Positions 1 through 30,031 of a DNA stretch of 64,000 bases are shown piece after piece. The first letter of the stretch is position 1. Every line of letters starts with the position of its first letter. Position numbers and translations under genes: made by a program. The notes under the pieces are model-generated. The model searched no databases and was not told where the DNA came from. It was given only the letters and a program-made list of their open reading frames with translations. Source of the stretch: an uncultured Bacilli bacterium (GTDB lineage Bacteria > Bacillota_I > Bacilli_A > RFN20 > CAG-449); the NCBI GenBank assembly GCA_947632435.1, contig CANRPC010000006.1, positions 4,923 to 68,922 of the forward strand, given 5' to 3'.

Positions 1-890
1 AGATTTCCTTCAGAAGTATTTAATGAATAATCTATATTTTGCTTAGATAAATAATTTTTCAAAAGCTTAATTTGATTTTGTGTATTCATTCCATCAACCA
101 TTGGATCATCACCAATTTCATCTTTACCTATTTTACATAGATAATCATGAAAATCTTGCTTTTGGTTTGGATGATCGTCTGCACCAGGAGATTGAGTAAA
201 ATCTTTGATTGAAAAAATATCATTAGTCATTTGTCTTGAAATTACATCATAATTTTCAGGGATGATGAGATCAGTATAAAATGTATCATAATAACTTAAT
301 AGAATCTCCATTGATACAATTGTACATGTTCCAACATGATTCCATGCATGATGGTCATTAAGTTTTTCAAAGTAAAAAGCATTAGGTATTACAACTGCAT
401 CATTTGCAATTTCAATTTCTCTATAATATTCACCTGCTTTAGCTTCTAAATTACTATAACAACTAATCATTTTTGTGAAATCAATTTTATTTGAAGTTGA
501 GGAATCAACAAAAGAATCATTATAATATGTTACATATCTAAATCCAAAATTTTCTGTTGAATATACTTTAAAATTATTTTCATACTTTTCGTATGGACTA
601 TCATCAGTAAAAGAATATTCCTTTATTTCCATTTCTTTTTTATCATAAATCAAATATCCTTCGTCTAAATTAACTTCTAAATATCGATTTTCACCAGATA
701 AAGTGTATAAATCGCTGATATATTCTATACAATTTAACTCATCACAATTTTGATAAGATATATTATTTTTTTCACAAATAAAAGTTGCGATGTTATTTAA
801 ATCAGAAGATCGAGTTTCATAATTTATTCCAGATGCAAAACCAGTAATTGCTGATAAGGCGTTAAGACCAAGTATAATAGCATTTAGCAT
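1..890 (-). CDS. Secreted hypothetical protein, 5'-partial at the window edge. N-terminal signal peptide (MLNAIILGLNALSAITGFASG), Cys-rich, with a DHHAWNHVGTCT motif.
   Basis: Hand translation of the minus strand from ATG at 890 (RBS GGAGGG upstream at 897-902) runs open to the window edge. It is absent from the ORF track because it is truncated. Co-oriented with the mobile-element operon. Confidence 0.5.
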   Translation of the reverse strand, partial: MLNAIILGLNALSAITGFASGINYETRSSDLNNIATFICEKNNISYQNCDELNCIEYISDLYTLSGENRYLEVNLDEGYLIYDKKEMEIKEYSFTDDSPYEKYENNFKVYSTENFGFRYVTYYNDSFVDSSTSNKIDFTKMISCYSNLEAKAGEYYREIEIANDAVVIPNAFYFEKLNDHHAWNHVGTCTIVSMEILLSYYDTFYTDLIIPENYDVISRQMTNDIFSIKDFTQSPGADDHPNQKQDFHDYLCKIGKDEIGDDPMVDGMNTQNQIKLLKNYLSKQNIDYSLNTSEGN

Positions 891-905: not shown

Positions 906-1502
906 TTAAAGTGCATAAGCACAAGCAAATATAATTGATATAATAATTAAAAATATGTTAAGTATAAAAATAATAGTTGCACTAACAAACAAATAATATT
1001 TTGCCTTCATTTGCTTAATAAATCGCCATAGTGCAAATAACAATATATCAATAATACACATAATAAACGTGATTATTGCTATCGGATTTCCATTTTTGGA
1101 GCAAGAATAAATAATGCTCCAAGTATAAAATTCTTTTAACGGATGATCCATACCAGTTGGTATTGGATAAACATAATTAAATCCTTTCAGGAATGGAATA
1201 AGAGAAGTAATCAAAAACAAAAAGCAAATTATAACACCTGTTATAGAAACAATTATATGAATGAGTTTTATAGATTTTAATGTGTCTAAAGATATTTGCA
1301 CGTTCTCATCGTTATCTACTAAATCTGACAATTTGACATTAAAATATACTGCTATTTTTTCTGCAACTTCCTTAGTTGGATAAACAAATCCTCTTTCATA
1401 TTTTGCAATCATCGAACGAGAAACATAAATTGCATCAGCTAATTCGCTTTGAGTAATTTTTTTATCATTTCTGAGTTTTTTTAATTTGTCTGAAAAATTC
1501 AT
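906..1502 (-). CDS. Membrane-tethered XRE-family HTH transcriptional regulator. N-terminal Cro/C1-type HTH with about 4 C-terminal transmembrane helices.
   Basis: ORF 906..1511. The start was refined to ATG at 1502 (MNFSDKL), which has a GGGGTGGT RBS. HTH motif KKITQSELADAIYVSRSMIAKYERG. Hydrophobic C-terminal half. Confidence 0.7.
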   Translation of the reverse strand: MNFSDKLKKLRNDKKITQSELADAIYVSRSMIAKYERGFVYPTKEVAEKIAVYFNVKLSDLVDNDENVQISLDTLKSIKLIHIIVSITGVIICFLFLITSLIPFLKGFNYVYPIPTGMDHPLKEFYTWSIIYSCSKNGNPIAIITFIMCIIDILLFALWRFIKQMKAKYYLFVSATIIFILNIFLIIISIIFACAYAL

Positions 1503-1742: not shown

Positions 1743-2174
1743 TTATTTGCATTGTTTCCACTTCTTTTCTATATTCATCAATTTTTGAGACACTGCTTGC
1801 TGTGATATTTTCATTATATTAGCGGTTTCTCTCTGATTCATTTCTTTAAAATAGTAAAGTTTGAAACAAAAGTTCTCTTTATCAGTCAATGAATGAAGAA
1901 AAGAATCTAAAATTGATTTTCTTTCTTCTATGGCTATTAATTTTCTTTCAATTTTATCTTTTCGATCAAGAAGAATCATCATTCTATCAGGTTTAACATT
2001 CGTGCTTCCGCCAATACGATCATAAACAGGACCAGACACAGTAAAGAAAAGATGATTTACCCACTCTAAATCTTCTTCAAGTTTTTTCTTACGAAATTTA
2101 TCCTGCTTTACCATTCTTACGAAGTCCATTAAGGAGTTCTTGCATTGACTCGTTCCAGCGTTCCATTCTTTCAT
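1743..2174 (-). CDS. ArpU/RinA-like phage transcriptional regulator with a sigma-70 region-4-like C-terminus.
   Basis: 143 aa. C-terminal HTH RETANIMKISQQAVSQKLMNIEKKW. Strong RBS GGAGGGA 5 nt upstream of ATG at 2174. Overlaps the 3' end of the upstream rep-like gene by 76 bp. Confidence 0.5.
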   Translation of the reverse strand: MKEWNAGTSQCKNSLMDFVRMVKQDKFRKKKLEEDLEWVNHLFFTVSGPVYDRIGGSTNVKPDRMMILLDRKDKIERKLIAIEERKSILDSFLHSLTDKENFCFKLYYFKEMNQRETANIMKISQQAVSQKLMNIEKKWKQCK

Positions 2175-3048
2175 CGTATCCCTCCATATGGCTTAAGTTG
2201 TTTTCAAAAGCACACCTAAAAAAATCATATATGTTCCAAATCTTATCTTTGTTTTTTCCAACATAGTCCCTAGTATAGCGAAAACACTTCTGTACGAGTT
2301 TCCAATCATATGCTTTACAAGCACTATCAAAAAGATCATTGAATCGCTCAATATCAATGTCGTAAATATCTATGATGTGATCACTTATTAAGCATCTTGT
2401 GTAATACGAAAGATAACGAGGAAATGCCGTTATATCATATTTATCCTTTTTATCTTCTTTTCCTTTTACTTTAACTTTCCCTTTTACTTTAGGAATTTTT
2501 GCTGACATTAACTCGGTTTCTGTTAACATTAATTCGTTTTTTGTTTGCAATAATTCCTCTTGAACGGAATTATTGTCAACATTTATTCCATTGAGTGATT
2601 TTTCACTTTTGTTGTCTGAACCATAATTTTTTATTACAGAAGATTCATCATCTGTGGTCAAAATCCAATATGGATGATCCTTTTGCTTTCTTCTTTGTGT
2701 TGAAGCTAAGAATTGCTTTTGTATCCCTTTTGAAGTAATTATTTCATTTGAAAGCATACTAGAATCAATTAAATCTAACTTAACAAATAGATCCAGTATT
2801 TTTCTTACATAGGAAACATCCTTATCGCTTTCTTTGAACCTGATTTCATAATAAATTGAATATGCAAGTCTATCCAAAGAACCTTCAATATAATAACCAT
2901 TACTTGAATAAGTCATTGTTAAAAGCATAAGGTATACTAAAGGACCATCTGGTCCAAATTCAACAGATAGTCTTCTTATCTTAGGATCAGCAAAAAACCT
3001 AACATCCAAAGGAAAGTAATCAAGCCCATCTTTCAATCTTCTAGGCAT
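2098..3048 (-). CDS. Phage replication initiation / replisome organizer-like protein (Lin1244/DUF4373-type N-terminal domain).
   Basis: The ORF is called 2098..3129, but the likely start is MPRRLKDGLDYFPLDVRFF at 3048, which has an AAAGGAG RBS. The GLDYFPLDV N-terminus is typical of the DUF4373 phage replication family. The assignment rests on pattern memory. Confidence 0.5.
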   Translation of the reverse strand: MPRRLKDGLDYFPLDVRFFADPKIRRLSVEFGPDGPLVYLMLLTMTYSSNGYYIEGSLDRLAYSIYYEIRFKESDKDVSYVRKILDLFVKLDLIDSSMLSNEIITSKGIQKQFLASTQRRKQKDHPYWILTTDDESSVIKNYGSDNKSEKSLNGINVDNNSVQEELLQTKNELMLTETELMSAKIPKVKGKVKVKGKEDKKDKYDITAFPRYLSYYTRCLISDHIIDIYDIDIERFNDLFDSACKAYDWKLVQKCFRYTRDYVGKNKDKIWNIYDFFRCAFENNLSHMEGYDERMERWNESMQELLNGLRKNGKAG

Positions 3049-3161
3049 GGTATTTTTGCTCCTTTCTGCAAGTGATAAAAATCTGCACAAAATGACAGGA
3101 ATAAGCATAAATTCTCTTAGACCTGCCACTTTTGTACATATTTAAACCGAAATCACTAACA

Positions 3162-3368
3162 TTATTTCTTATTCGGTTTATTCTTGTTTTCGCTTCTTTG
3201 GATAAACTCCTCTAGCATTTCTTTTGATACTCTTTTTGCTTTACCAACAGTGTAATATCTAAGCTCACCTTTATTCATCATATCCATTACTTTTCTTTTG
3301 GAAACTCCCCAGAGTTCCGCTAGTTCACTAACGGTATAACAGATCTTCCCATCTGATGTTTGTGCCAT
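3162..3368 (-). CDS. xis: Excisionase-like small HTH DNA-binding protein.
   Basis: 68 aa. Motif YTVSELAELWGVSKRKVMDMMNKGEL matches the excisionase/MerR-type HTH. Strong RBS GGAAGGAGG. Lies adjacent to the integrase operon. Confidence 0.6.
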   Translation of the reverse strand: MAQTSDGKICYTVSELAELWGVSKRKVMDMMNKGELRYYTVGKAKRVSKEMLEEFIQRSENKNKPNKK

Positions 3369-4136
3369 CTAATCTTCCTCCTTCCTACCTGCATAATCTT
3401 CTAATATTTTTCTTATATGATTAATTCCCTTTTTATAGCAGAATGTTCTTCGATGCGTAACCAGTCCACCACTTTTATCTGTATAAGAATGGTTATCAAC
3501 TCTAAACCATCCTTTATCTTGATATTCTTGAAATGGAAAATTATCATCAGTAAAAATAAGTTGTGCTCTTAAAATCGCTAGGAGTTCGGCAATACCGACA
3601 CCCTTCATATTAATCACTGCAGGAACATCATAAAGATCAACAAGCGTTCCAGAATCTAAGGCTCTTTTAACATAGATTTTGACTTCTCTTGTTTCTTCTT
3701 GTTGACGTTCTAAAATTGCAAGTTTAACTTTGAGTTCATTGTAATTATCTAAAAACGACACTGCTGATTCAGTATTAGTGGTTATCATCTGAACATCATA
3801 TTTCCCATATCTTCTAATCTTTGGAAGTATGTCTTCAGTAACCCAGTCCATAAACTGCACTGCCGATTCTTTCCTAGATTGAAAAATTAACTTATATAAG
3901 TTCCCTTCTGTGATATAAAGGTAGTTTTGATTTCCACCATTTGATTGCCTAGTAAGTTTAACTACACCATCAGATCTTAGTCTTGATTTTGCATCAGAGA
4001 CATTTTTAATTTCTAAAATATTACACACATCTTTAAGGCAAAATACTGGACGTCCAAATTCATCGATACTAGTTCTTATTGTGCCAATTGAGTCACGCTC
4101 AAAAAGCGATACATTGTTTAGTTGTTCTTTTTCCAT
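3369..4136 (-). CDS. Phage antirepressor with a Bro-N N-terminal domain and a KilA-C/ANT-like C-terminal domain.
   Basis: 255 aa. N-terminus FERDSIGTIRT..DEFGRPVFCLKDVCNILE...GNLYKLIFQSRKESAVQFMDWVTEDILPKIRRYGKY is a classic Bro-N pattern. The C-terminus contains AELLAILRAQLIF. RBS GAAAGGA. Confidence 0.65.
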   Translation of the reverse strand: MEKEQLNNVSLFERDSIGTIRTSIDEFGRPVFCLKDVCNILEIKNVSDAKSRLRSDGVVKLTRQSNGGNQNYLYITEGNLYKLIFQSRKESAVQFMDWVTEDILPKIRRYGKYDVQMITTNTESAVSFLDNYNELKVKLAILERQQEETREVKIYVKRALDSGTLVDLYDVPAVINMKGVGIAELLAILRAQLIFTDDNFPFQEYQDKGWFRVDNHSYTDKSGGLVTHRRTFCYKKGINHIRKILEDYAGRKEED

Positions 4137-4180: not shown

Positions 4181-5098
4181 CTAATTCTTTTTTAAAATTG
4201 CATCTGCAACAATTAGTTCAGTATTATTGGTTTCTCTTTCAATATGATGAGAATAAATCATAGTTGTATTTATTGATTTATGTCTTAAAACCATCTGAAC
4301 TTCACTTTCTTTTGCTCCATTTTTTAAAGCTAGTGTTGCACAAGTATGCCTTAGACTATGAGCTGTGTACTCCTTACCATCAAGTCCAATCGAACTTAAT
4401 AAATCTTTGCAAAAATAAGAGATCGTTTTTGGTTCAATTCTTTCTCCACCATTATGATTTCCATGGTTAATGAAAAGTGCATCAGAATCACTTTCTCTTT
4501 TCATTAAGTATTCAGTAATTAATCCCATAACAAAGCTAGGTAATTTAATTTGAGCATCTTTTCCTTCATGACCTTTTCCCTGAATTAGTAAAATGGCTTG
4601 CTCTCCATCATCAATAATGTCTTCGACATTTGCTCTAGAAACCTCAATAGTTCTTAAACCTGTCATAACTATAAGAGTTATAATTACATAATTTCTAAAA
4701 TTTACAATTGATTTTTTTGATCTAATTTTTGCTTTATGAAGTAACTTTTTAGTCTGTTCAATTGTCAGAGCTTTTCTTTGAAATGTTGGATTTATTTTTT
4801 CACACTGTAATGCCAAAGCAATATTATCATCATAATAATGATGACGTTGACACCACGAATAGAACCTGCGTAGGACCACTATATATTTCTGGATAGTTGC
4901 ACTTTTCACACGTTTCTTAAGATATTTATTTTTATAATTTACAATGTCAATTTCAGTTGGTTTAGTTATATTATTAGCACGTAAATATCTAGCATATCTA
5001 TCAAGAATCCCTGCATAAGAAATCTTTGTATTATCCATTTTATCAAGAGTAGCATTAAACTCTTTTATTAGATCTTCCACTGTTCTTTCTTGTGACAT
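4181..5098 (-). CDS. int: Tyrosine-type site-specific integrase.
   Basis: C-terminal catalytic signature HSLRHTCATLALKNGAKESEVQMVLRHKSINTTMIYSHH (R..H..R..Y). The ORF track gives 4181..5110 with a GTG start. ATG at 5098 (MSQERT) has an AAAGGTGG RBS and is the more likely start. Confidence 0.85.
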   Translation of the reverse strand: MSQERTVEDLIKEFNATLDKMDNTKISYAGILDRYARYLRANNITKPTEIDIVNYKNKYLKKRVKSATIQKYIVVLRRFYSWCQRHHYYDDNIALALQCEKINPTFQRKALTIEQTKKLLHKAKIRSKKSIVNFRNYVIITLIVMTGLRTIEVSRANVEDIIDDGEQAILLIQGKGHEGKDAQIKLPSFVMGLITEYLMKRESDSDALFINHGNHNGGERIEPKTISYFCKDLLSSIGLDGKEYTAHSLRHTCATLALKNGAKESEVQMVLRHKSINTTMIYSHHIERETNNTELIVADAILKKN

Positions 5099-5103
5099 CT
5101 TTT

Positions 5104-5382
5104 TTACCACCTTTCTTTATGATTAAGCTCTCGGATTTTTTCTAGATACTTTGCTTCTTCATCAACAATGTAAACCACATCAATGTTAAACACCTGTGCA
5201 AGAGCCTTTAGTCTAAGAGCATTCATTAAATGACCTTTTGTACCATTCTCAATTTTTCCATATTCGAATTGAGGGTATCCTAGTCGCTTAGCTACTTCAT
5301 ATTGAGATAAGTTTCTTTCTATCCTCAAATTGAAAAGATAGTCTCTGCTTTTTACGATGTTTCCGTTATTCATCCGTCCCAT
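5104..5382 (-). CDS. Cro/CI-type HTH (XRE family) regulator. It is the first gene of the leftward int operon.
   Basis: HTH LSQYEVAKRLGYPQFEYGKIENG. The ORF track extends to 5400 with a GTG start. ATG at 5382 is preceded by AAGGGAGGT. Transcribed divergently from the 190-aa XRE gene. Confidence 0.7.
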   Translation of the reverse strand: MGRMNNGNIVKSRDYLFNLRIERNLSQYEVAKRLGYPQFEYGKIENGTKGHLMNALRLKALAQVFNIDVVYIVDEEAKYLEKIRELNHKERW

Positions 5383-5523
5383 CGGTATACCTCCCTTCAC
5401 ATTTGACTAAAATTCGTGGAATTGTTTGTCTAATGTATGGAAATTTTACCGCTAATTGTCAAAATAAATAATTTACTCGAAGTAATATCTTTTAATTATT
5501 TTGCATTTTGTCAAATTTCAAAG

Positions 5524-5552
5524 TTGAATAAAAACTATGTTTTTGTTATAAT
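5524..5552 (+). promoter_or_regulatory. Sigma-A-type promoter for the rightward repressor-like gene. TTGAAT -35 at 5524-5529, a 17-bp spacer, and an extended -10 TGTTATAAT at 5544-5552.
   Basis: Read directly from the sequence. RBS AGGTGA at 5566-5571. TTGTCAAA is repeated twice in the 5401-5576 intergenic region (around 5455 and 5507), as would be expected for operators. Confidence 0.5.
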
Positions 5553-5576: not shown

Positions 5577-6149
5577 ATGCAAGACGAAGAATTTATAAAA
5601 TTAGTTTCAAAAAGACTTGTTTACTTAAGAAAAAAACATGATCTAAGTGCCGTTGAAGTTGCAAAAGCAATAGGAAAAAGCGTAGATGCTTATTACAGCT
5701 ACGAGGCAGGTAGAAGGATGATTTCTGCAGATGCTTTGTATAATTTATCAAATCTATATGACATGTCTATTGATGACATTGTTGATAACGAAGTAACATA
5801 TAAACGAGAAAAATCAGTCAGTTTTGAAGTTGTAAATTCGGATAGTAAAATACAAATTTCCTCCGAGAATAATGAAATTATTTTTTTTAAATTAGATGAT
5901 TTCACCTATGAATACTATTTAAAAACAAATACCATTACGCTTGACAGAAAAATCCTTTTAAAGAAAGACGATGTCTTCTTCTCAGGTAAAGTTACATATA
6001 ACGAAAAAATGAAAGTTTACTCTATTTACAATTACTTAGATGATAGAAATGAAATCTGCACTAAAGCACATTTCTTGAAACATTATCTTACTTATGGAAT
6101 TTATGCTGGAAGAATTAATAAAAACATAGATATTCCAAATTTCTTATAA
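5577..6149 (+). CDS. XRE-family HTH protein resembling a CI-like repressor, with a C-terminal extension.
   Basis: N-terminal HTH LSAVEVAKAIGKSVDAYYSYEAGRR. Transcribed divergently from the Cro-like-int operon across a 176-bp promoter region. Confidence 0.7.
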   Translation: MQDEEFIKLVSKRLVYLRKKHDLSAVEVAKAIGKSVDAYYSYEAGRRMISADALYNLSNLYDMSIDDIVDNEVTYKREKSVSFEVVNSDSKIQISSENNEIIFFKLDDFTYEYYLKTNTITLDRKILLKKDDVFFSGKVTYNEKMKVYSIYNYLDDRNEICTKAHFLKHYLTYGIYAGRINKNIDIPNFL

Positions 6150-6259: not shown

Positions 6260-6292
6260 AAGCACCATTCACGTTGGAAAGGTGCTTTTTTC
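6260..6292 (+). terminator. Rho-independent terminator: hairpin AAGCACC...GGTGCTT followed by a T-run.
   Basis: A stem of 7 bp with a T6 tail, read from the sequence. Confidence 0.5.
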
Positions 6293-6539
6293 TATGCAAA
6301 ATAATACTTTAAAAAATGATAATATATCTTTTTCACCTGAATGGGAATATTGCAAACAAGTAATTGATGAACTAAGAGCAAACAAAATCATAACATCAGA
6401 TGAATGGTATAAATTAATAATTTCATTTAGAAGCATATTTCATCTCCCTATCGCAAAATAGGTATTATTTCAGTTCAAAAATTACTTGATATAAGTGTGC
6501 TTTAGAGTGATTTATATGTGCGAAAGGAGGATTAATTTA

Positions 6540-8243
6540 ATGGAGTTAACAACAAAAAAAATAACTATAATTCCCAAGAAAGAACAAATAAAAGTTGATG
6601 AAACGACGGGTATTAAAATCAAAAAGAAAGTATGTGCTTATGCTCGTGTTTCTACAAATTTAGAAGACCAAAAGAATAGTTTTAATGCTCAGCTTGAGGA
6701 ATATTCAAGCAGAATAAAGAGAAATCCTGAATGGGAATTTGTAGGACTATATTCTGATGAAGGAATATCAGGAACATCCATAAAGAAAAGAAAAGGGTTC
6801 CAGAAAATGATTGAGGATGCTCTAGAAGGAAAAATCGATATAATTCTAGTAAAATCAATCTCAAGATTCGCTAGAAATACTATCGATTGCCTAAGTGTAC
6901 TTAGAAAACTTAGAGATAAAGGAATCATTGTCCAGTTTGAAAAAGAGCAAATTAACACACTTGATCCAAAACTTGAGATGATGATTACAATTTTTGCATC
7001 AATGGCTCAGGAAGAATCAAAATCGATTAGTGAAAATGTTAAATGGGGCGTTCGAAGTCGAATGAAACGAGGTGCAAGAAAAATTAGTTTTTCTACCATT
7101 CTTGGATATGACACAGATACAAATGGCAATGTAGTAATTATCGATGATGAAGCAAAAATTGTAAAAGAAATTTTTACTCTATTCTGCTCTGGATACTCAT
7201 ATAGAGAAATAATTGATTATTTGACTGAGAAAGGTCAAAAAACTGGAACAGGTAAAGATTATTGGAATGTTGGTGATATTCAAAGAATATTATCAAATGA
7301 AAAATACTGTGGTGATGTTTTATTGCAAAAAACTGTCGTAGTTGATTTTCTAACTCACAAAGTTATAAAAAACAATGGAATAGAACCACAAGTTTATATC
7401 GAGGGACATCATCCACCTATTATCGATAAAGAGATGTTCGATTTTGCTAAAACAATTAGAGAACATAAGTATAAAATGATAGACCACACATCAAGAAAAA
7501 ATATTAATCCTTTAGCTGGTATTGTATATTGCTCTTGTTGCGGAAGAAAGCTTGATTCGATAACTACTCATCCTGGAAAGTCATATGCAAAAAAAGTTAT
7601 GACTTGTAAGCACATGAAAAAAGAAGCTGTAGATTTTTTAGAATGTAACCTCCCACCTATAGATTACGAATTATCAAAGGAAGCACTAAGACAAGTTTTG
7701 AATAAATACTACACTTCTGCTCCAGTTTACAAAAGATTATTTATGAACACTTTTAAAAAAGCGTTACCTAATTTCAGAGAAATTAAGTTATCTATAAATG
7801 ATATTAACTCAACTATAATTCAACTCGAATCTAAGCTTAAAGAAATCATCAAAAAACAAGCATTATCTCCATGTAAAGAAAATGAGATAGAATTTCAAAC
7901 TATAAAACAATTGTTAACTAAAGAAAAAGAAAAATTAGAAAACTTGGAAACTTCTGAAGTTAAAAAAGTAAATGATTTAAGGACATATGATGAAATAGAA
8001 AACTTTATCGAAAATGGAATTATACTTCCAAAACAACTTATAGCTCAAGTTATCAAATTTATTATAAGAAACAATGATAATTCATTAACTTTTGTTTTAG
8101 GAAACAAGGCCTCTTGTTCCATTTCAAAAGCTCAAATTGATGAATATCTTTCATTAACTCCTGTTGATTCAGGATCGGTTGAAATTGATGGAAAAGTTAT
8201 GGAGTATAAAGTAATTAATGCAGGAGGTGATACAAATGATTAA
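6540..8243 (+). CDS. Large serine recombinase with an N-terminal resolvase/invertase catalytic domain, a recombinase domain and a zinc ribbon.
   Basis: YARVSTNLEDQ catalytic-Ser motif, DIILVKSISRFARN, and Cys pairs CSCCGRK...TCKHMK. The start was refined to ATG 6540 (MELTTKK), which has an AAAGGAGG RBS. The ORF track begins at 6495. Confidence 0.85.
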   Translation: MELTTKKITIIPKKEQIKVDETTGIKIKKKVCAYARVSTNLEDQKNSFNAQLEEYSSRIKRNPEWEFVGLYSDEGISGTSIKKRKGFQKMIEDALEGKIDIILVKSISRFARNTIDCLSVLRKLRDKGIIVQFEKEQINTLDPKLEMMITIFASMAQEESKSISENVKWGVRSRMKRGARKISFSTILGYDTDTNGNVVIIDDEAKIVKEIFTLFCSGYSYREIIDYLTEKGQKTGTGKDYWNVGDIQRILSNEKYCGDVLLQKTVVVDFLTHKVIKNNGIEPQVYIEGHHPPIIDKEMFDFAKTIREHKYKMIDHTSRKNINPLAGIVYCSCCGRKLDSITTHPGKSYAKKVMTCKHMKKEAVDFLECNLPPIDYELSKEALRQVLNKYYTSAPVYKRLFMNTFKKALPNFREIKLSINDINSTIIQLESKLKEIIKKQALSPCKENEIEFQTIKQLLTKEKEKLENLETSEVKKVNDLRTYDEIENFIENGIILPKQLIAQVIKFIIRNNDNSLTFVLGNKASCSISKAQIDEYLSLTPVDSGSVEIDGKVMEYKVINAGGDTND

Positions 8244-9852
8244 AACATTGCATAAACCAGTTGATGGCAGAAAACTAAAAGTTTGTGCTTATGCTAGAGT
8301 TTCATCAGATAAAGAACTTCAAGAAACAAGTTTTGATGAGCAAATAACATATTATATTAATTTAATAATGAATAATCCTGAATGGGACTTTGCAGGTATA
8401 TTCGCAGATAATGGCAAGACAGGTACTAATACAAGTGTAAGAACACAATTTAATCTCATGCTTGATAAAGCAAAATCTAGCCAAATTGATATTATTCTAG
8501 TTAAATCAATTTCACGATTCGCAAGAAATGTAATTGACCTTTTAAGCACCATTCAAGAACTAAGATTAAAAGGAATTGAAGTCTTTTTTGAAAGAGAAAA
8601 CCTTTCTTCTCTCGATTATAAATGCGATGAACTTCTAACTTGTTATGCAAAATTTGCTGAAGAGGAATCAGAATCAATAAGTAAGAATGTTAAATGGGCT
8701 GTTGAAAAAGCAAAACGAGATGGAAAATACTTTATCAATACTTGGCAGATGCTAGGATATTCATATAATGAAAACAATGAAATTGTTATTGTTGAAGAAG
8801 AAGCAAAATGGATACGAGCAATTTATAACATGTATGTAAATAATCGCTCACTTGTAGAGATTCAACAATTCTTAAAGGAAAACAATGTTAAAAGTCCTTT
8901 AGGAAAAGAAATATGGCCTTTTACTACACTTATGCATACTCTAACAAATGAAAAATATGTAGGTGATTGCCTCATGCAAAAAGAATTTATTGAAGATGTC
9001 AAGACGCATAAGAAAATTCAAAATACTGGCCAAGAAACGCAAGTACTCATAGAAAATGGGCATCCAGCAATTATAGATAGAGATTTATTTAATAAAGCTC
9101 AAGCATTAAGAGAATCAAGACGTAAGCAGTTTAAGGTAAGAACTATATTAGAAGGAACCTACATAAAATCTTCTAATTCTTCTACTTATACTGGATTTGC
9201 ATACTGTCCTCATTGTGGTAAGAATTATATTCTTAAAACAAATAGAAAAGAAGGTTATATGAGAAAAATGCTCTACTGCGGTTCAAATCGAAATGGACTT
9301 CAATGCAGAAAAAGCGAATCATTATTTTGTGACATTTTGGAAGACATTATGGTAAAGCAAATAAATGTTATACTAGCAAATAAATCATATTTTAAAGAAT
9401 GGTTATTAAATGGCTTCAGAATAAATGAATCAGACATTGATAATACTTCTGAGAAGATTGAATCTTTAAGAAAAAGACTTACTGAACTTGATGATAATGT
9501 TGAAATAGACAGGTATGTTAAAGAGGAAATTAACAATCAAATAAATAGTCTCATTACCAAGCAAATCCAAGAGCGAAATAATAAACTTGTAATTGATTAT
9601 CAATCTCTTATTTCAAAAATTCTTGATTTGATTAAGCAATATAATTCAATAAAAACAATTGATGAAATTCCGTTTAGAGATATTTTCTCAAAAGTGATAG
9701 TCATTGATAGAGATCACTTAATATTTGTCATAGGAAGTCCAAATTTAGAAAAAGTTGATGTTAATCAAAAAACATACTTCTCATCAAAAATAATTTACAG
9801 AGTGAGAAAAACAAACTTCGAATGTGAATTTGGTATAATCATAAATAAGTAA
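8236..9852 (+). CDS. Second large serine recombinase, a paralog of the upstream gene.
   Basis: YARVSSDKELQ, DIILVKSISRFARN and a zinc-ribbon CPHCGK...CGSNRNGLQC. The start was refined to ATG 8236 (MIKTLHK), which has a GGAGGTGA RBS. It overlaps the upstream stop by 8 bp, as in ccrA/ccrB pairs. Confidence 0.85.
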   Translation: MIKTLHKPVDGRKLKVCAYARVSSDKELQETSFDEQITYYINLIMNNPEWDFAGIFADNGKTGTNTSVRTQFNLMLDKAKSSQIDIILVKSISRFARNVIDLLSTIQELRLKGIEVFFERENLSSLDYKCDELLTCYAKFAEEESESISKNVKWAVEKAKRDGKYFINTWQMLGYSYNENNEIVIVEEEAKWIRAIYNMYVNNRSLVEIQQFLKENNVKSPLGKEIWPFTTLMHTLTNEKYVGDCLMQKEFIEDVKTHKKIQNTGQETQVLIENGHPAIIDRDLFNKAQALRESRRKQFKVRTILEGTYIKSSNSSTYTGFAYCPHCGKNYILKTNRKEGYMRKMLYCGSNRNGLQCRKSESLFCDILEDIMVKQINVILANKSYFKEWLLNGFRINESDIDNTSEKIESLRKRLTELDDNVEIDRYVKEEINNQINSLITKQIQERNNKLVIDYQSLISKILDLIKQYNSIKTIDEIPFRDIFSKVIVIDRDHLIFVIGSPNLEKVDVNQKTYFSSKIIYRVRKTNFECEFGIIINK

Positions 9853-9876
9853 AAAAATATATAAAAAAAGAGGAAC

Positions 9877-9915
9877 TTGAGTTTGTAAGTTCAAGTTCCT
9901 TTTTCTTTGCTCATA
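9877..9915 (+). terminator. Rho-independent terminator: a 10-bp perfect stem AGGAACTTGA...TCAAGTTCCT followed by TTTTCTTT.
   Basis: Read from the sequence immediately after the recombinase stop. Confidence 0.6.
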
Positions 9916-10110
9916 AGTTCGCTTCCCGTTTGCTTCTCGTTCGCTTTCCCTATGTCTTTAATTTGAATAATTTATGAGTTCGTACCCTATATTTATCAAT
10001 GCATTTTTGCCTAGTTTAATACCAATTGACCAGAAACCGCTAGAACTAATCATTTGCTAAAAAGTGTCGTTTCGTGCGTTTTGCTGTTGATATAGTGCAT
10101 TTTTAGACAA

Positions 10111-10139
10111 AAATAAAAAGAGTACCAACTGGTATTCTT
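10111..10139 (-). terminator. Rho-independent terminator for tRNA-Trp. The hairpin has 9 of 10 bp paired, followed by a U-run on the minus strand.
   Basis: Plus strand reads AAATAAAAAGAGTACCAACTGGTATTCTT. On the minus strand this is a hairpin followed by TTTTTATTT. Confidence 0.5.
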
Positions 10140-10153
10140 TTGGTTTTTTTGAA

Positions 10154-10227
10154 TGGCAGGAGTGACAGGAATCGAACCCGCGTTAATGGTTTTGGAGACC
10201 ACTGTACTACCATTGTACGACACTCCT
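10154..10227 (-). tRNA. trnW: tRNA-Trp (anticodon CCA).
   Basis: Minus-strand sequence AGGAGTGTCGTACAATGGTAGTACAGTGGTCTCCAAAACCATTAACGCGGGTTCGATTCCTGTCACTCCTGCCA folds into a cloverleaf with anticodon loop CTCCAAA. The CCA end is encoded. Confidence 0.85.
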
Positions 10228-27289: not shown

Positions 27290-27303
27290 ATGGAGTGAAA
27301 TAT

Positions 27304-28701
27304 ATGCCTGAATTACCTGAAGTAGAAACTGTAAGAAAATATCTTTCAATCGGAATTAAAGGGAAAAAGATTGAAAAGGTAAATATTATTGACAAAAGAA
27401 TAACAAGTTTATCAAAACTTGATTTAAAATTATTAAATGGTCAAAAAATAATTGATATTGATAGAAAAGGTAAATATTTAATTTTTATTTTTGAAGATTA
27501 TATAATGCTATCACATTTACGTATGGAAGGAAAGTATTATTTATATCATGAAAATGAAGAAAATAGTAAATATGCTAGAGTTATTTTTAATCTCAATGAA
27601 AATTTGAAATTAATTTACGATGATGTTCGTCGTTTTGGAAAAATGCAACTTTTCAAAAAAGAAAATTTTGATATTCATATTGCTTTACCAAATCTTGGAA
27701 ATGAACCATTTGATTATGATAAGGAAACTTTTTTTAAAATTATCCATAAACAAAAAAAAGAAATTAAAACTTTATTACTAGATCAATCTATAATCGCAGG
27801 AATAGGAAATATCTATGCTGATGAAATTCTTTTTAAAGCAAAAATATCTCCATTTAAATGTGGTTTTGAATTATCAAAACAAGATACAGATAATATATTA
27901 TTTTACGCGATAGAAACTCTTAATGAAGCAATATTACTAGGTGGTTCAACAATTAGAAGTTATCATCCTTCTAGAGATATAAATGGTCGTTTTCAACAGC
28001 AACTTTTAGCATATGGACGAGAAAAAAAGCCTTGTCTTATTTGTAATCATAAAATGATTAAACGTTTTTTACATGGTCGAAGTCTAACATATTGCCCTAA
28101 TTGCCAACATGTAGGAAAAGTTGTAGCAATATATGGTAAAATTGCTTCTGGTAAATCTTCTATCTTAAAAATGTTTCAAAATGATAATTATCCATGCTTT
28201 TCAAGCGATGATGAAGTTGATAAATTATATAAAAACGATATTAATTTTACATTAAAATGTGTTAACTTGTTTCACGAAGAATGCTTAAATAGTAACAATA
28301 AAGTTTCTAAAGAATATGTAAAACAAGTAATTATACAAGATTCTCAAAAGAAGAAAGAATTAGAAGGAATAATTCATCCAATAATTCAAAAAAAGGCTAT
28401 TGACTTTATAAAAAAGAATATCGATAAAGAACTTATTATTTTAGAAATACCTTTATTATTTGAAGCAAAAATGGAATCAATCGCAGATTATATTGTTGGC
28501 GTTGATGTTTCTGACTATATGCAAATTCAAAATTTAAAAACAAGAAATTCAATTTCCATAACAAATGATCTTATTTTAAATAAAAATAATTCATTCAACA
28601 AAAATATTGCTAAATGTGATTTTGTAATTGAAAATAATTCTACATTAGAGGATTTAAAAAAGAAATATGAAGAATTAAAGAATTTTTTAATTAATGTTTA
28701 A
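27304..28701 (+). CDS. mutM-coaE: Fusion protein: formamidopyrimidine-DNA glycosylase (MutM/Fpg) joined to dephospho-CoA kinase (CoaE).
   Basis: The N-terminus PELPEVETVRKYL and the zinc finger CLICNHK..16 aa..CPNCQH complete a Fpg domain. A CoaE P-loop VVAIYGKIASGKSS follows in the same frame with no intervening stop. Confidence 0.75.
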   Translation: MPELPEVETVRKYLSIGIKGKKIEKVNIIDKRITSLSKLDLKLLNGQKIIDIDRKGKYLIFIFEDYIMLSHLRMEGKYYLYHENEENSKYARVIFNLNENLKLIYDDVRRFGKMQLFKKENFDIHIALPNLGNEPFDYDKETFFKIIHKQKKEIKTLLLDQSIIAGIGNIYADEILFKAKISPFKCGFELSKQDTDNILFYAIETLNEAILLGGSTIRSYHPSRDINGRFQQQLLAYGREKKPCLICNHKMIKRFLHGRSLTYCPNCQHVGKVVAIYGKIASGKSSILKMFQNDNYPCFSSDDEVDKLYKNDINFTLKCVNLFHEECLNSNNKVSKEYVKQVIIQDSQKKKELEGIIHPIIQKKAIDFIKKNIDKELIILEIPLLFEAKMESIADYIVGVDVSDYMQIQNLKTRNSISITNDLILNKNNSFNKNIAKCDFVIENNSTLEDLKKKYEELKNFLINV

Positions 28702-29021
28702 TATCCTAAAATGACATATAAAAGAATTTCGATAGTCTCATCTTTTTGATTTAACGTTTTATGATAATCATGGCAAATAGTAAATGAAAATATTGCACCA
28801 TTTTCTGCATGATCTTCTTGATATTTTAGATAAATATCATTTTCTTTTAAAATTTCTTTTAACTCATTAGTAATGCCTAAATCTTTTCTTATTTTTGATT
28901 TAACAAACTCAATATTTTCTAGTAAGGTGTTATAACAATAGTAATAATTTCCTAAATCATATATAAATACTAACATAAATAAAATAAATACTAACTTAGT
29001 AAAATAGTAGATTTTTTTCAT
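28698..29021 (-). CDS. Hypothetical small membrane-anchored protein, the last gene of a 5-gene leftward operon.
   Basis: 107 aa with an N-terminal transmembrane segment. Overlaps the upstream gene by 4 bp. Confidence 0.4.
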   Translation of the reverse strand: MKKIYYFTKLVFILFMLVFIYDLGNYYYCYNTLLENIEFVKSKIRKDLGITNELKEILKENDIYLKYQEDHAENGAIFSFTICHDYHKTLNQKDETIEILLYVILGY

Positions 29022-30031
29022 GCATAAAACCTCAAAAAAATAAATAACAAAATTGGTAAAGCAAAATATATTAAAGAAGTGTTTTTTCGATAGTAATTTA
29101 GTAAATAATTATTATTTTTTAATGAATCATTTTCTTCTTTAATAAGTTCATTTTTTATTAATATTTGAGATATTTCTTTATCAAAAGTATTTTTTATTTT
29201 AAAGTCATCTAAATGATTTAAAATAGTAATTTTTTTGTTTTGCATTTTTTCTTGAATTTTAGGAAATTCTAAACAAGTTTTATCAAATGCATCAAATGGT
29301 AAAATGTAAAAACATTTTAGATAAAATTGTTGAAAAAAATTAATTTTGATATTTTTTTTATAAAAATAAAAACAATAACTATAATACGTAAAATAAAAAA
29401 TTATTTTTATAATAACTGCTAAATTTATCAAAAATATATTTATATTTATTAAAGGTAATATCATTGTAATTAATACATCCATAAATAAAGAAATAATTAA
29501 CAGAAATTTGATATCAATTAAAGAATTTTTAATTTCTTCATTTTGCTTTTCTTGCAAAAAAATAGAAATTTGATTCCTCATTTTTTTTAAAATATCATTT
29601 TGTTTTTTGCTTAACATTGCATCTATAAAATATGAACAATAAGGAAGATTAATTTTTATTTTTATTTCTTCTATTTTGTTTTCAATACTATTTTCATTTA
29701 ATGGAATAGCAAATACTTTTTCAAAAGAATTAATTATTTTTTCCTCTTTTGAAATATTTTGAGTATTTTGAAAAATACTATCCGTAAAAATTAAAAATTT
29801 TTTATTTAAAAGACAATTTTTGCTTATTAAATTCAAAACGTAATTATCAAAAATAAAAATAATACTTAAAATTAAACAACTAAATATTATTTTCACATAT
29901 TTATTAATAATTATAAGATCTAAAATTAAATAAATTAATATTGCAATAAATATATTACTTATAAATGATATGTAAGAGAAAACTGAATCTCTTTTTTGTT
30001 CTTGTAATAGTTTTTTTGATAATTTAGGCAT
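29018..30031 (-). CDS. Hypothetical polytopic membrane protein.
   Basis: 337 aa with at least 4 transmembrane segments. Strong RBS AAAGGAGGT before ATG 30031. Confidence 0.5.
   Translation of the reverse strand: MPKLSKKLLQEQKRDSVFSYISFISNIFIAILIYLILDLIIINKYVKIIFSCLILSIIFIFDNYVLNLISKNCLLNKKFLIFTDSIFQNTQNISKEEKIINSFEKVFAIPLNENSIENKIEEIKIKINLPYCSYFIDAMLSKKQNDILKKMRNQISIFLQEKQNEEIKNSLIDIKFLLIISLFMDVLITMILPLININIFLINLAVIIKIIFYFTYYSYCFYFYKKNIKINFFQQFYLKCFYILPFDAFDKTCLEFPKIQEKMQNKKITILNHLDDFKIKNTFDKEISQILIKNELIKEENDSLKNNNYLLNYYRKNTSLIYFALPILLFIFLRFYA

What the first reader, a model, noticed from the sequence alone, without database searches (positions are those of the whole stretch)
6540..9852. Tandem, overlapping large serine recombinase paralogs (ccrA/ccrB-like arrangement)
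Two genes of 567 and 538 aa each retain the catalytic YARVS(T/S)xxxQ serine motif, the DIILVKSISRFARN core and C-terminal zinc ribbons. They overlap by 8 bp. Obligate two-subunit large serine recombinases are best known from staphylococcal SCC elements and some clostridial transposons or prophages. A pair sitting directly at a tRNA-proximal element end in a Mollicutes-like genome is noteworthy. Their att site should lie in the adjacent 9853-10153 non-coding stretch.
Basis: partly seen in the sequence, partly recalled or inferred. Interest (0 to 1): 0.65.

Follow-up and report, generated by a model that had tools for sequence, protein, structure and literature searches.

The report
Paired serine integrases beside a tRNA gene
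Two intact, overlapping large serine recombinase genes form the integrase module at the end of a phage-like mobile element inserted just after a tRNA-Trp gene; such pairs prove to be the rule among their relatives, so the arrangement is ordinary, but how the two proteins share the work is still untested.

Summary
LSR1 (6540-8243, 567 aa) and LSR2 (8236-9852, 538 aa) overlap by 8 bp. Both have resolvase, recombinase and zinc-ribbon domains and intact catalytic Arg and Ser residues.

They lie at the right end of a cI/cro-controlled, phage-like element. That end maps to about 10152-10153, directly against the CCA end of tRNA-Trp. A near-identical element sits at the same spot in at least four divergent hosts. 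A copy with 100% identical recombinase DNA sits after tRNA-Leu(caa).

Both genes are under strong purifying selection (dN/dS about 0.1) and have diverged in step.

The arrangement is not rare. About 86% of 172 related loci carry tandem pairs, including GenBank prophages. Neither protein is a CcrA or CcrB orthologue (99-136 bits against cut-offs of 700-900).

My best reading is a two-gene integrase acting on an asymmetric att site whose host arm is the tRNA 3' end. Three things remain unproven:
- whether both proteins are required;
- whether the conserved Xer-like tyrosine recombinase 5 kb away contributes;
- where the left end lies, since the window starts inside the element.

Verdict: a new member of a known kind, of moderate interest.

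The parts
1..890 (-). Partial cargo ORF of the element. It runs off the window start and is at least 542 aa in L097. Function unknown.
   Evidence: Sequence. Longer copy. No PHROG hit.
906..1502 (-). HTH_3 protein with a hydrophobic C-terminal half; variable cargo or regulator.
   Evidence: Pfam HTH_3 at 8e-15. RBS and ATG at 1502.
1743..2174 (-). Sigma-70 region-4-like small regulator; conserved module gene.
   Evidence: Conserved in L004, L007 and L099.
2098..3129 (-). Lin1244_N replication initiator or replisome organiser.
   Evidence: Pfam 3e-17. phrog_2562 'replication initiation protein' at 7e-33.
3162..3368 (-). 68-aa HTH_17 (excisionase/MerR-like) protein. It is a candidate directionality factor; this role is inferred.
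   Evidence: Pfam HTH_17 at 3e-13, with a weak Tn916-Xis hit.
3369..4136 (-). Bro-N/ANT antirepressor-type protein.
4181..5098 (-). Xer-like tyrosine recombinase (305 aa), co-conserved with the LSR pair throughout the family. Role unknown; multimer resolution is inferred.
   Evidence: Pfam Phage_integrase plus SAM_1. NCBIfam XerA/XerD/XerC-like, below cut-offs. Family conservation. dN/dS 0.03.
5104..5400 (-). Cro-like HTH, first gene of the leftward early operon.
   Evidence: Synteny.
5577..6149 (+). cI-like HTH repressor, first gene of the rightward operon that ends with the two LSR genes. A promoter-like site with an extended -10 lies at 5524-5552.
6282..6461 (+). Conserved 59-aa ORF just upstream of LSR1. 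Function unknown.
   Evidence: phmmer hits in L004 (123 bits) and L099 (27 bits). No Pfam or PHROG hit.
6540..8243 (+). LSR1, a 567-aa large serine recombinase of the 'core' clade. Invariant residues in its family are R36, S38, D73, R84, R109, R112 and C331, C334, C356, C369.
   Evidence: dN/dS 0.11.
8236..9852 (+). LSR2, a 538-aa large serine recombinase of the 'partner' clade, overlapping LSR1 by 8 bp. Invariant residues in its family are Y19, R21, S23, D58, R69, R94 and R97.
   Evidence: dN/dS 0.07.
9917..9946 (+). 11-bp tandem repeat GTTCGCTTCCC, 2.7 copies, loosely resembling a tRNA T-arm. Role unexplained.
   Evidence: Related motifs lie after the LSR2 stop in other family members.
10063..10082 (+). 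20-mer AGTGTCGTTTCGTGCGTTTT, 71 nt from the junction. It looks like an operator. The same 20-mer heads repeated cassettes upstream of cargo genes in L194.
10116..10141 (.). Hairpin with T-runs on both strands, read as a bidirectional terminator at the element tip. On the minus strand it supplies a terminator for tRNA-Trp.
   Evidence: for the + strand. The minus-strand reading comes from the sequence. An analogous hairpin is present in L007.
10152..10156 (.). Element/host junction and inferred strand-exchange zone: AA|TGG on the + strand, which is CCA|TT on the tRNA sense strand.
   Evidence: Identity to L004 falls from 98% to about 60% here. The element terminus is identical at Trp and Leu tRNAs, with host-specific acceptor and discriminator bases. 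The candidate empty site L016 diverges after CCATT.
10154..10227 (-). Host tRNA-Trp(cca). Its 3' end is the host arm of the att site.

Best explanation
LSR1 and LSR2 together form the integration/excision module of a cI/cro-regulated, phage-like integrative element. The element carries variable anti-phage or unknown cargo.

The two genes are co-transcribed with the repressor and are translationally coupled through the 8-bp overlap. They insert the element immediately 3' of a tRNA gene. Strand exchange falls within CCA|TT, so the tRNA stays intact, and the element tip provides a replacement terminator.

I infer that the two paralogues act as one heteromeric recombinase. Their catalytic halves are alike, but their DNA-binding C-terminal thirds are unrelated. 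That suits an att site with no dyad symmetry, with a tRNA T-arm/acceptor/CCA arm on one side and AT-rich spacer on the other.

**Shown:** gene integrity, position at the element end, the exact right junction, recent mobility between two tRNA targets, purifying selection on both genes, and near-universal pairing among relatives.

**Inferred:** that the LSRs rather than the Xer-like tyrosine recombinase perform integration, that both are required, and that they form a heteromer.
For: - **Domains and catalytic residues** are intact in both proteins and invariant in both orthologue sets.
- **Pair conservation.** LSR1 and LSR2 are 49.5% and 48.7% identical to their L007 counterparts. dN/dS is 0.11 and 0.07 at dS of about 0.6.
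- **Pairing among relatives.** 148 of 172 loci found through LSR1-like motifs carry a tandem pair and 11 carry three or four genes. Partner clades are specific to position in the pair.
- **Right boundary.** Identity to L004 is 98% up to 10152 and about 60% in the host flank.
- **Recent mobility.** The same element terminus abuts tRNA-Trp in at least four host backgrounds. With 100% identical LSR DNA it also abuts tRNA-Leu(caa), whose 3' 30 nt match tRNA-Trp at 24 of 30 positions.
- **Narrow exchange zone.** Acceptor and discriminator bases are host-specific, which confines exchange to 5 nt or fewer. That is less than the 6-8 bp overlap tyrosine recombinases use (the overlap length is established knowledge).
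- **Same geometry elsewhere.** Family members sit 190-400 bp from tRNA-Glu, Met, Cys and Leu. LSR pairs with no tyrosine recombinase within 10 kb also abut tRNA 3' ends (L023, L026, L036).
- **Position of the tyrosine recombinase.** It is Xer-like, internal, and lies in the early leftward operon.
Against: - The left end, and therefore attP, was never recovered. A 2-bp core is inferred from one junction plus one 1-kb candidate empty site (L016).
- The Xer-like tyrosine recombinase is conserved in every member of this sub-family and is under even stronger constraint (dN/dS 0.03). tRNA 3' ends are the classic target of tyrosine integrases (PMC5704250).
- Four independent inactivating lesions hit LSR1 in natural copies and none hit LSR2. 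So the pair is not needed for maintenance, and LSR2 might act alone. Sampling bias applies to this count.
- No experiment or complex model supports a heteromer.
Confidence: 0.6

Rival explanations
1. One LSR is the working integrase and the other is dispensable or auxiliary. The second could be a redundant paralogue, an integrase for a different secondary site, or a non-catalytic regulator of directionality. In this reading the pair is not an obligate heteromer.
For: LSR1 carries four independent lesions in natural copies while LSR2 stays intact. Single-gene LSR integrases are the well-studied norm: SprA in 9DXD, TP901-1, and TnpX. CcrC works alone (established knowledge).
Against: Both proteins keep all catalytic residues across about 50% divergence. 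Both are under equal, strong purifying selection. The overlap and coupling are conserved. Pairing is near-universal in the clade. The Trp and Leu insertions use the same element terminus, so there is one attP rather than two.
Confidence: 0.25
2. The Xer-like tyrosine recombinase is the integrase that targets the tRNA 3' end. The LSR pair then serves another role, such as resolution or inversion, or it is the integrase of a formerly separate, now fused element.
For: tRNA 3' ends are typical tyrosine-integrase targets (PMC5704250, PMC4701971). The tyrosine recombinase is co-conserved with the pair in all sub-family members. An HTH_17 Xis-like gene lies nearby. T-arm-like and tRNA-3'-like fragments occur inside the right end.
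Against: It lies about 5 kb from the junction, inside the early operon, and lacks an arm-binding N-domain (SAM_1 type, XerA/C/D-like). The exchange zone is 5 nt or fewer. LSR pairs without any tyrosine recombinase show the same tRNA-abutting geometry. The LSR genes always lie next to the junction.
Confidence: 0.1
3. The module is a decaying remnant with no current activity.
For: Some copies carry nonsense or frameshift lesions in LSR1. The window holds only one end of the element.
Against: In this window both ORFs are full length. dN/dS is about 0.1. Recombinase DNA that is 100% identical sits at two different tRNA sites.
Confidence: 0.05

Closest known systems
CcrA/CcrB (and CcrD/CcrE) recombinase pairs of staphylococcal SCC and related islands
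   Same: - Two adjacent, co-oriented LSR genes sit at the edge of an integrative island.
- Insertion is at the 3' end of a conserved host gene, which is left functional.
- Cargo includes defence or resistance genes.
- There are signs of tandem stacking of related elements (L100/L104; PMC11470126, PMC10581047).
   Different: - They are not orthologous. LSR1 and LSR2 score 136 and 99 bits against CcrB (cut-off 900). LSR1 scores 88 bits against CcrA (cut-off 700) and LSR2 gives no CcrA hit.
- Both partners are CcrB-like, so this duplication is independent.
- The target is a tRNA 3' flank, not rlmH or rimL.
- The element has a phage-type cI/cro switch, an antirepressor and a replication initiator, not the SCC cch/polA complex.
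Tandem LSR pairs at the ends of Firmicutes prophages (for example Streptococcus phage Javan255, Clostridium phage CWou-2020b, Anaeroplasmataceae phage NatCom_34063)
   Same: Overlapping or closely spaced LSR pairs at the prophage terminus. One member of each pair belongs to the same 'core' clade as LSR1.
   Different: - In most of them the order is partner then core, with a short partner of about 440 aa. Here it is core then partner, with both long.
- In those phages the pair follows the lysis genes. Here it follows the cI-like repressor.
- In the paper library I searched (8 searches) I found no functional study of these pairs.
Serine-recombinase triplets of Streptococcus ICEs (Tn1806/ICE_mutT type) and the two-LSR Tn6105 of C. 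difficile
   Same: These are multi-gene LSR modules with position-specific clades, interpreted as ancient duplications (PMC4701971, PMC3158075).
   Different: - Three genes rather than two.
- They insert into and disrupt protein-coding genes (mutT, hsdM, traG).
- They belong to conjugative or mobilisable elements, not a cI/cro phage-like one.
Single-gene phage serine integrases (SPbeta SprA, A118, TP901-1, phiC31, Bxb1)
   Same: The same domain architecture and, presumably, the same chemistry with a 2-bp crossover. SprA and TP901-1 are detectable PDB relatives.
   Different: One gene acts as a homotetramer on partly symmetric sites, usually inside ORFs.

Membership tests
Large serine recombinases (serine integrases) | N-terminal resolvase catalytic domain with the nucleophile Ser and conserved Arg residues | tested here: met
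   PF00239 at 1e-35 and 2e-28. R36/S38/R109/R112 in LSR1 and R21/S23/R94/R97 in LSR2 are invariant in their families.
Large serine recombinases (serine integrases) | Recombinase domain (PF07508) followed by a zinc-ribbon domain | tested here: met
   PF07508 at 2e-25 and 5e-21. PF13408 at E = 4e-5 and 1e-4, just under the gathering score. Four Cys residues are present in both, and they are invariant in the LSR1 family.
Large serine recombinases (serine integrases) | Coiled-coil insertion in the zinc-ribbon domain that controls directionality | tested here: inconclusive
   Heptad-rich, charged stretches follow the Cys cluster in both proteins. No structure was predicted.
Large serine recombinases (serine integrases) | Recombination of short attP and attB sites with a 2-bp crossover | not testable with these tools
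   Only the right junction is available. The exchange zone is narrowed to 5 nt or fewer.
CcrA/CcrB of SCC elements | Sequence membership (NCBIfam equivalog models) | tested here: not met
   CcrB model: 136 and 99 bits against a cut-off of 900. CcrA model: 88 bits for LSR1 and no hit for LSR2, against a cut-off of 700.
CcrA/CcrB of SCC elements | Two adjacent co-oriented LSR genes | tested here: met
   8-bp overlap on the same strand.
CcrA/CcrB of SCC elements | Integration at the 3' end of rlmH (orfX) | tested here: not met
   The junction abuts tRNA-Trp. The neighbouring host genes are YqeY and ABC-F.
CcrA/CcrB of SCC elements | Both proteins required for integration and excision | not testable with these tools
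   Only indirect evidence is available: co-conservation set against LSR1 lesions in natural copies.
Serine-recombinase triplets of Streptococcus ICEs | Three tandem LSR genes that insert into and disrupt a protein-coding gene | tested here: not met
   There are two genes, and the insertion is intergenic, after a tRNA.
tRNA-targeting tyrosine-integrase elements | A tyrosine integrase next to the att site, with a duplicated tRNA 3' segment flanking the element | tested here: inconclusive
   The tyrosine recombinase is Xer-like and lies 5 kb inside the element. The tRNA 3' acceptor strand at the junction is host-derived. The left end was not available to check for a repeat.

The most novel reading that the evidence does not exclude
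The pair is a natural heterodimeric serine integrase. One subunit reads the universal 3' architecture of a tRNA gene (T-arm, acceptor strand, CCA) and the other reads the unrelated flank. The 2-bp crossover falls just after CCA. This design would explain how close relatives have retargeted to Trp, Leu, Glu, Met and Cys tRNAs. It would also explain how a serine recombinase can occupy a niche thought typical of tyrosine integrases. The T-arm-like repeats beside the LSR2 stop might be accessory binding sites.
Probability: 0.35. Interest if true: 0.6.

Novelty: new member of a known kind. Interest (0 to 1): 0.38.

Why it matters
Large serine recombinases are leading tools for inserting large DNA segments, and almost all mechanistic work concerns single-gene enzymes. 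This survey shows that a whole clade of them occurs in nature as conserved, translationally coupled pairs.

If the partners bind different half-sites, they would offer a way to recognise asymmetric targets, and possibly a modular route to retargeting.

The tRNA-flank insertion with a built-in replacement terminator is also a tidy example of a serine-recombinase element using a site class usually credited to tyrosine integrases.

In genome annotation terms, however, this is an ordinary prophage-type integration module.

Tried and rejected
**Finding the left end and attP (all attempts failed)**
- The flanking sequence of the candidate empty site L016 is not in the window.
- The gene next to the L016 empty site has no homologue in the protein index.
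- Exact-protein look-ups of window genes returned only short contigs.
- Walking through cargo genes showed a mosaic cargo region with no common breakpoint.
- Pattern scans of the metagenome and viral collections for the empty-site flank and for the element terminus found nothing.

**Terminal inverted repeats (rejected)**
- A 20-nt inverted repeat first looked like a terminal repeat.
- It turned out to head a promoter-bearing cassette repeated before cargo genes.
- The TGGTAT motifs near the ends are extended -10-like or hairpin sequences, not clearly recombinase sites.

**Direct repeats of the tRNA 3' end**
- None were found in the left 10 kb of L020, L096, L007 or L004.
- A 15-nt match in L020 lies inside a cargo coding region and is a chance match.

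**Other checks**
- No known RNA family lies in 9853-10153, apart from the tRNA at 10154-10227.
- My first label for the L004 cargo, 'BREX type 4', was revised to an Ssp/Dnd-like phosphorothioation system once more of the contig was seen.
- The Heliusvirales paper and the Durrant et al. paper say nothing about paired LSRs or tRNA targets.
Full report
**Observation.**

The window encodes two co-oriented genes.
- LSR1 runs from 6540 to 8243 (567 aa), preceded by AAGGAGG.
- LSR2 runs from 8236 to 9852 (538 aa), preceded by AGGAGG.
- They overlap by 8 bp, ATGATTAA.

Both match Pfam Resolvase (1e-35, 2e-28) and Recombinase (2e-25, 5e-21). Both match the recombinase zinc ribbon just under its gathering score (E = 4e-5, 1e-4). 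They are 41% identical over the first ~337 residues (E = 5e-86), and their C-terminal thirds do not align. tRNA-Trp(cca) lies at 10154-10227 on the minus strand.

**Surroundings.**

To the left of the pair lies a compact switch-and-replication module.
- A cI-like HTH gene (5577-6149, +) heads the operon that ends in the LSR genes.
- Diverging from it on the minus strand are, in order:
  - a cro-like HTH gene;
  - a 305-aa Xer-like tyrosine recombinase;
  - a Bro-N/ANT antirepressor;
  - a 68-aa HTH_17 (Xis-like) protein;
  - a Lin1244_N replication initiator;
  - a sigma-region-4-like regulator;
  - variable cargo.

To the right of 10153 the window holds host core genes: YqeY, ABC-F, HolA, AlaRS, DnaE, PolA and ATP synthase. 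The window therefore holds only the right-hand ~10 kb of a mobile element. Its left end lies before position 1.

**The right boundary.**

A 97-98% identical copy of the element (L004) sits in a different host. Identity is 98-100% across most of 9853-10152, dipping to 84-92% between 10003 and 10102. It is 90% across the tRNA and about 60% beyond it.

Further copies give the same picture.
- They abut tRNA-Trp genes with at least four different acceptor stems.
- One copy (L182) has LSR1+LSR2 DNA 100% identical to that of L181 and abuts tRNA-Leu(caa).
- In every case the element ends ...CCAACTGGTATTCTTTTGGTTTTTTTGAA, directly against the TGG (CCA) of the tRNA.

A 1-kb contig from the window's own species (L016) looks like the empty site. 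It carries identical YqeY and tRNA-Trp and diverges after CCATT.

The acceptor-stem and discriminator bases at the junction are always host-specific. Strand exchange is therefore confined to CCA+TT, 5 nt at most. The tRNA is left intact. A hairpin with T-runs on both strands (10116-10141) sits at the tip of the element. On the minus strand it provides a terminator for the tRNA (sequence).

It lies at the extreme right edge of that stretch.

**Are both genes functional?**

LSR1 orthologues (36 sequences, down to 39% identity) keep R36, S38, D73, R84, R109, R112 and four Cys residues invariant. The 15 second-position partners keep Y19, R21, S23, D58, R69, R94 and R97.

Between the window and L181, dN/dS is 0.11 for LSR1 and 0.07 for LSR2, at dS of about 0.6. 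Against L007 the two proteins have diverged equally, to 49.5% and 48.7% identity. Both are maintained by selection and evolve as a unit.

**How common is the pairing?**

Motif-based retrieval of LSR1 relatives from one-genome-per-species contigs and from IMG/VR, plus the other loci fetched to that point, gave 172 loci with an LSR gene. Of these, 148 have a tandem pair, 9 a triplet, 2 a quartet and 13 a single gene, some of the singles lying at contig ends.

GenBank phages show the same arrangement: Javan255, C. botulinum phage CWou-2020b, and an Anaeroplasmataceae Heliusvirales phage.

Clustering the catalytic and recombinase regions gives one 'core' clade that contains LSR1. It also gives several partner clades, each specific to a position in the pair. 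Most pairs run partner then core, usually with a short upstream partner. The window's order, core then long partner, occurs in about 20 of 140 pairs.

All partner types score best, but weakly, against the CcrB model (99-157 bits, cut-off 900). They score worse against CcrA (91 bits or fewer, cut-off 700). These pairs therefore arose independently of CcrA/CcrB. The likeness to ccrAB is one of layout, not of family.

**Which recombinase does the integration?**

The sub-family that shares the window's module also shares the Xer-like tyrosine recombinase. Its members are the window, L004, L007, L017, L020, L021, L025, L096, L099-L102, L104, L150 and L151.

Many members sit with the LSR2 end 190-400 bp from the 3' end of a tRNA gene. 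The tRNAs are Trp, Leu(caa), Glu, Met, Cys and Leu(cag), plus two tRNAs cut off by contig ends. tRNA 3' ends are the textbook target of tyrosine integrases, whereas LSR elements usually interrupt protein genes (PMC5704250, PMC4701971). The tyrosine recombinase is therefore a real rival.

Several points count against it.
- It is Xer-like with a SAM_1 N-domain, and it lies 5 kb inside the element in the early operon.
- The LSR genes always lie next to the junction.
- The exchange zone is shorter than a tyrosine-recombinase overlap.
- Three LSR-pair loci with no tyrosine recombinase within 10 kb (L023, L026, L036) abut tRNA 3' ends in the same orientation.
- Twelve of 124 loci (about eight distinct elements) have a correctly oriented tRNA within 800 bp. 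I estimate roughly one would be expected by chance.

I therefore assign integration to the LSR pair with about 80% confidence. I assign the tyrosine recombinase a secondary role, perhaps multimer resolution of the replicating circle; this is inference.

**Heteromer or not?**

These points favour joint action:
- the overlap and its conservation (8 bp here and in L181, 14 bp in L007, 4 bp in Javan255);
- equal evolutionary constraint on the two genes;
- near-universal pairing in the clade;
- unrelated DNA-binding C-terminal regions;
- an attB with no dyad symmetry (tRNA arm against AT-rich flank; my reading of the sequence);
- a single element terminus used at both the Trp and Leu sites, which argues against two independent attP sites.

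One point counts against an obligate heteromer. LSR1 carries four independent inactivating lesions in natural copies, while LSR2 is intact in all of them.
- L185 has an indel at nt 8.
- L186 and L189 have a stop at codon 459.
- L191 has a stop at codon 380.
- L004-L006 have an indel near nt 1575.

Part of this asymmetry is ascertainment bias, because several of these loci were found through LSR2. It could equally reflect immobilisation of a useful island. I put the heteromer at about 50-60%.

**Nature of the element.**

Cargo beyond the conserved module is mosaic and rich in defence genes.
- L004/L201 and L020 carry an Ssp/Dnd-like phosphorothioation set: a PAPS-reductase-type protein, DUF4007, a BrxC/PglY-like ATPase, a cysteine-desulfurase fragment, a PLD-helicase and a dnd-associated protein.
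- L192 and L194 carry AbiTii and AbiEii.
- L007 and L101 carry DNA methyltransferases.
- Gabija and SIR2-HerA lie next to a tandem pair of family members on one IMG/VR contig.

A more distant relative continues into a small terminase and a ParB-methylase. At least some members are therefore phages or phage satellites. The window's own cargo (1-1502) has no recognisable function.

**Unexplained features of the 300-bp tail.**

- An 11-bp repeat, GTTCGCTTCCC x2.7 (9917-9946), loosely resembles a T-arm.
- In L101 and L020, fragments matching the flanking tRNA's 3' end (20/22 and 21/25) lie inside the element, in opposite orientations.
- A 20-mer at 10063-10082 recurs in cassettes upstream of cargo genes.

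These may be accessory or regulatory sites, or relics of earlier att sites. I could not decide between these.

**Comparison and verdict.**

Multi-gene LSR modules are already known: CcrAB and CcrDE, the Streptococcus ICE triplets, and Tn6105 (PMC10581047, PMC4701971, PMC3158075). Prophage LSR pairs are abundant in public data, although eight searches of the paper library turned up no functional study of them.

This locus is a sound, intact new member of that kind. It is not a Ccr orthologue and not a rarity. The points worth following up are the tRNA-flank target and the possibility of division of labour between the two subunits.

Noticed in passing
L201 8253-20333 (same element as L004); L020 106-6348: The cargo of close and distant family members is an Ssp/Dnd-like DNA phosphorothioation defence set. 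It comprises a PAPS-reductase-type protein, DUF4007, a BrxC/PglY-like ATPase, a cysteine-desulfurase fragment, a PLD-DEAD helicase, an AAA_23 protein and a dnd-associated protein.
   Followed up: partly
L100 13795-19634 and L104 (one IMG/VR contig, IMGVR_UViG_3300000351_000079): Two members of the element family lie in tandem on one contig. The outer one abuts a tRNA. Gabija (AAA_15/TOPRIM plus UvrD) and SIR2-HerA genes follow the inner LSR pair. This is reminiscent of SCC-style stacking.
   Followed up: partly
L185, L186/L189, L191, L004-L006 (LSR1 orthologues): Four independent inactivating mutations hit LSR1: an indel at nt 8, stops at codons 459 and 380, and an indel near nt 1575. LSR2 is intact in every copy.
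   Followed up: yes
window 9917-9946 and ~9975; L101 ~13542; L020 13275-13305: T-arm-like repeats lie just after the LSR2 stop. In two relatives there are internal fragments matching the flanking tRNA's 3' end (20/22 inverted, 21/25 direct). These are unexplained.
   Followed up: partly
window 10063-10082; L194 10595, 13545, 14312: The 20-mer AGTGTCGTTTCGTGCGTTTT near the element tip recurs, inverted, at the head of a ~190-bp promoter-bearing cassette. That cassette is repeated before cargo genes (AbiTii and others). It looks like a shared operator.
   Followed up: partly
window 27295-28701 (+): A single 468-aa ORF combines Fpg/MutM glycosylase domains with a dephospho-CoA kinase (CoaE) domain, an apparent gene fusion.
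   Followed up: no
window 55114-60378 (-), 34230-36542 (-), 29018-30031 (-): Large host ORFs of 1754, 770 and 337 aa have no Pfam match at E <= 1e-5. The region from about 28 to 32 kb has the lowest GC in the window (0.19-0.20).
   Followed up: no
window 6282-6461 (+): A 59-aa ORF between the repressor and LSR1 is conserved in L004 and weakly in L099. It has no family match. It could be a small accessory factor of the integration module.
   Followed up: partly
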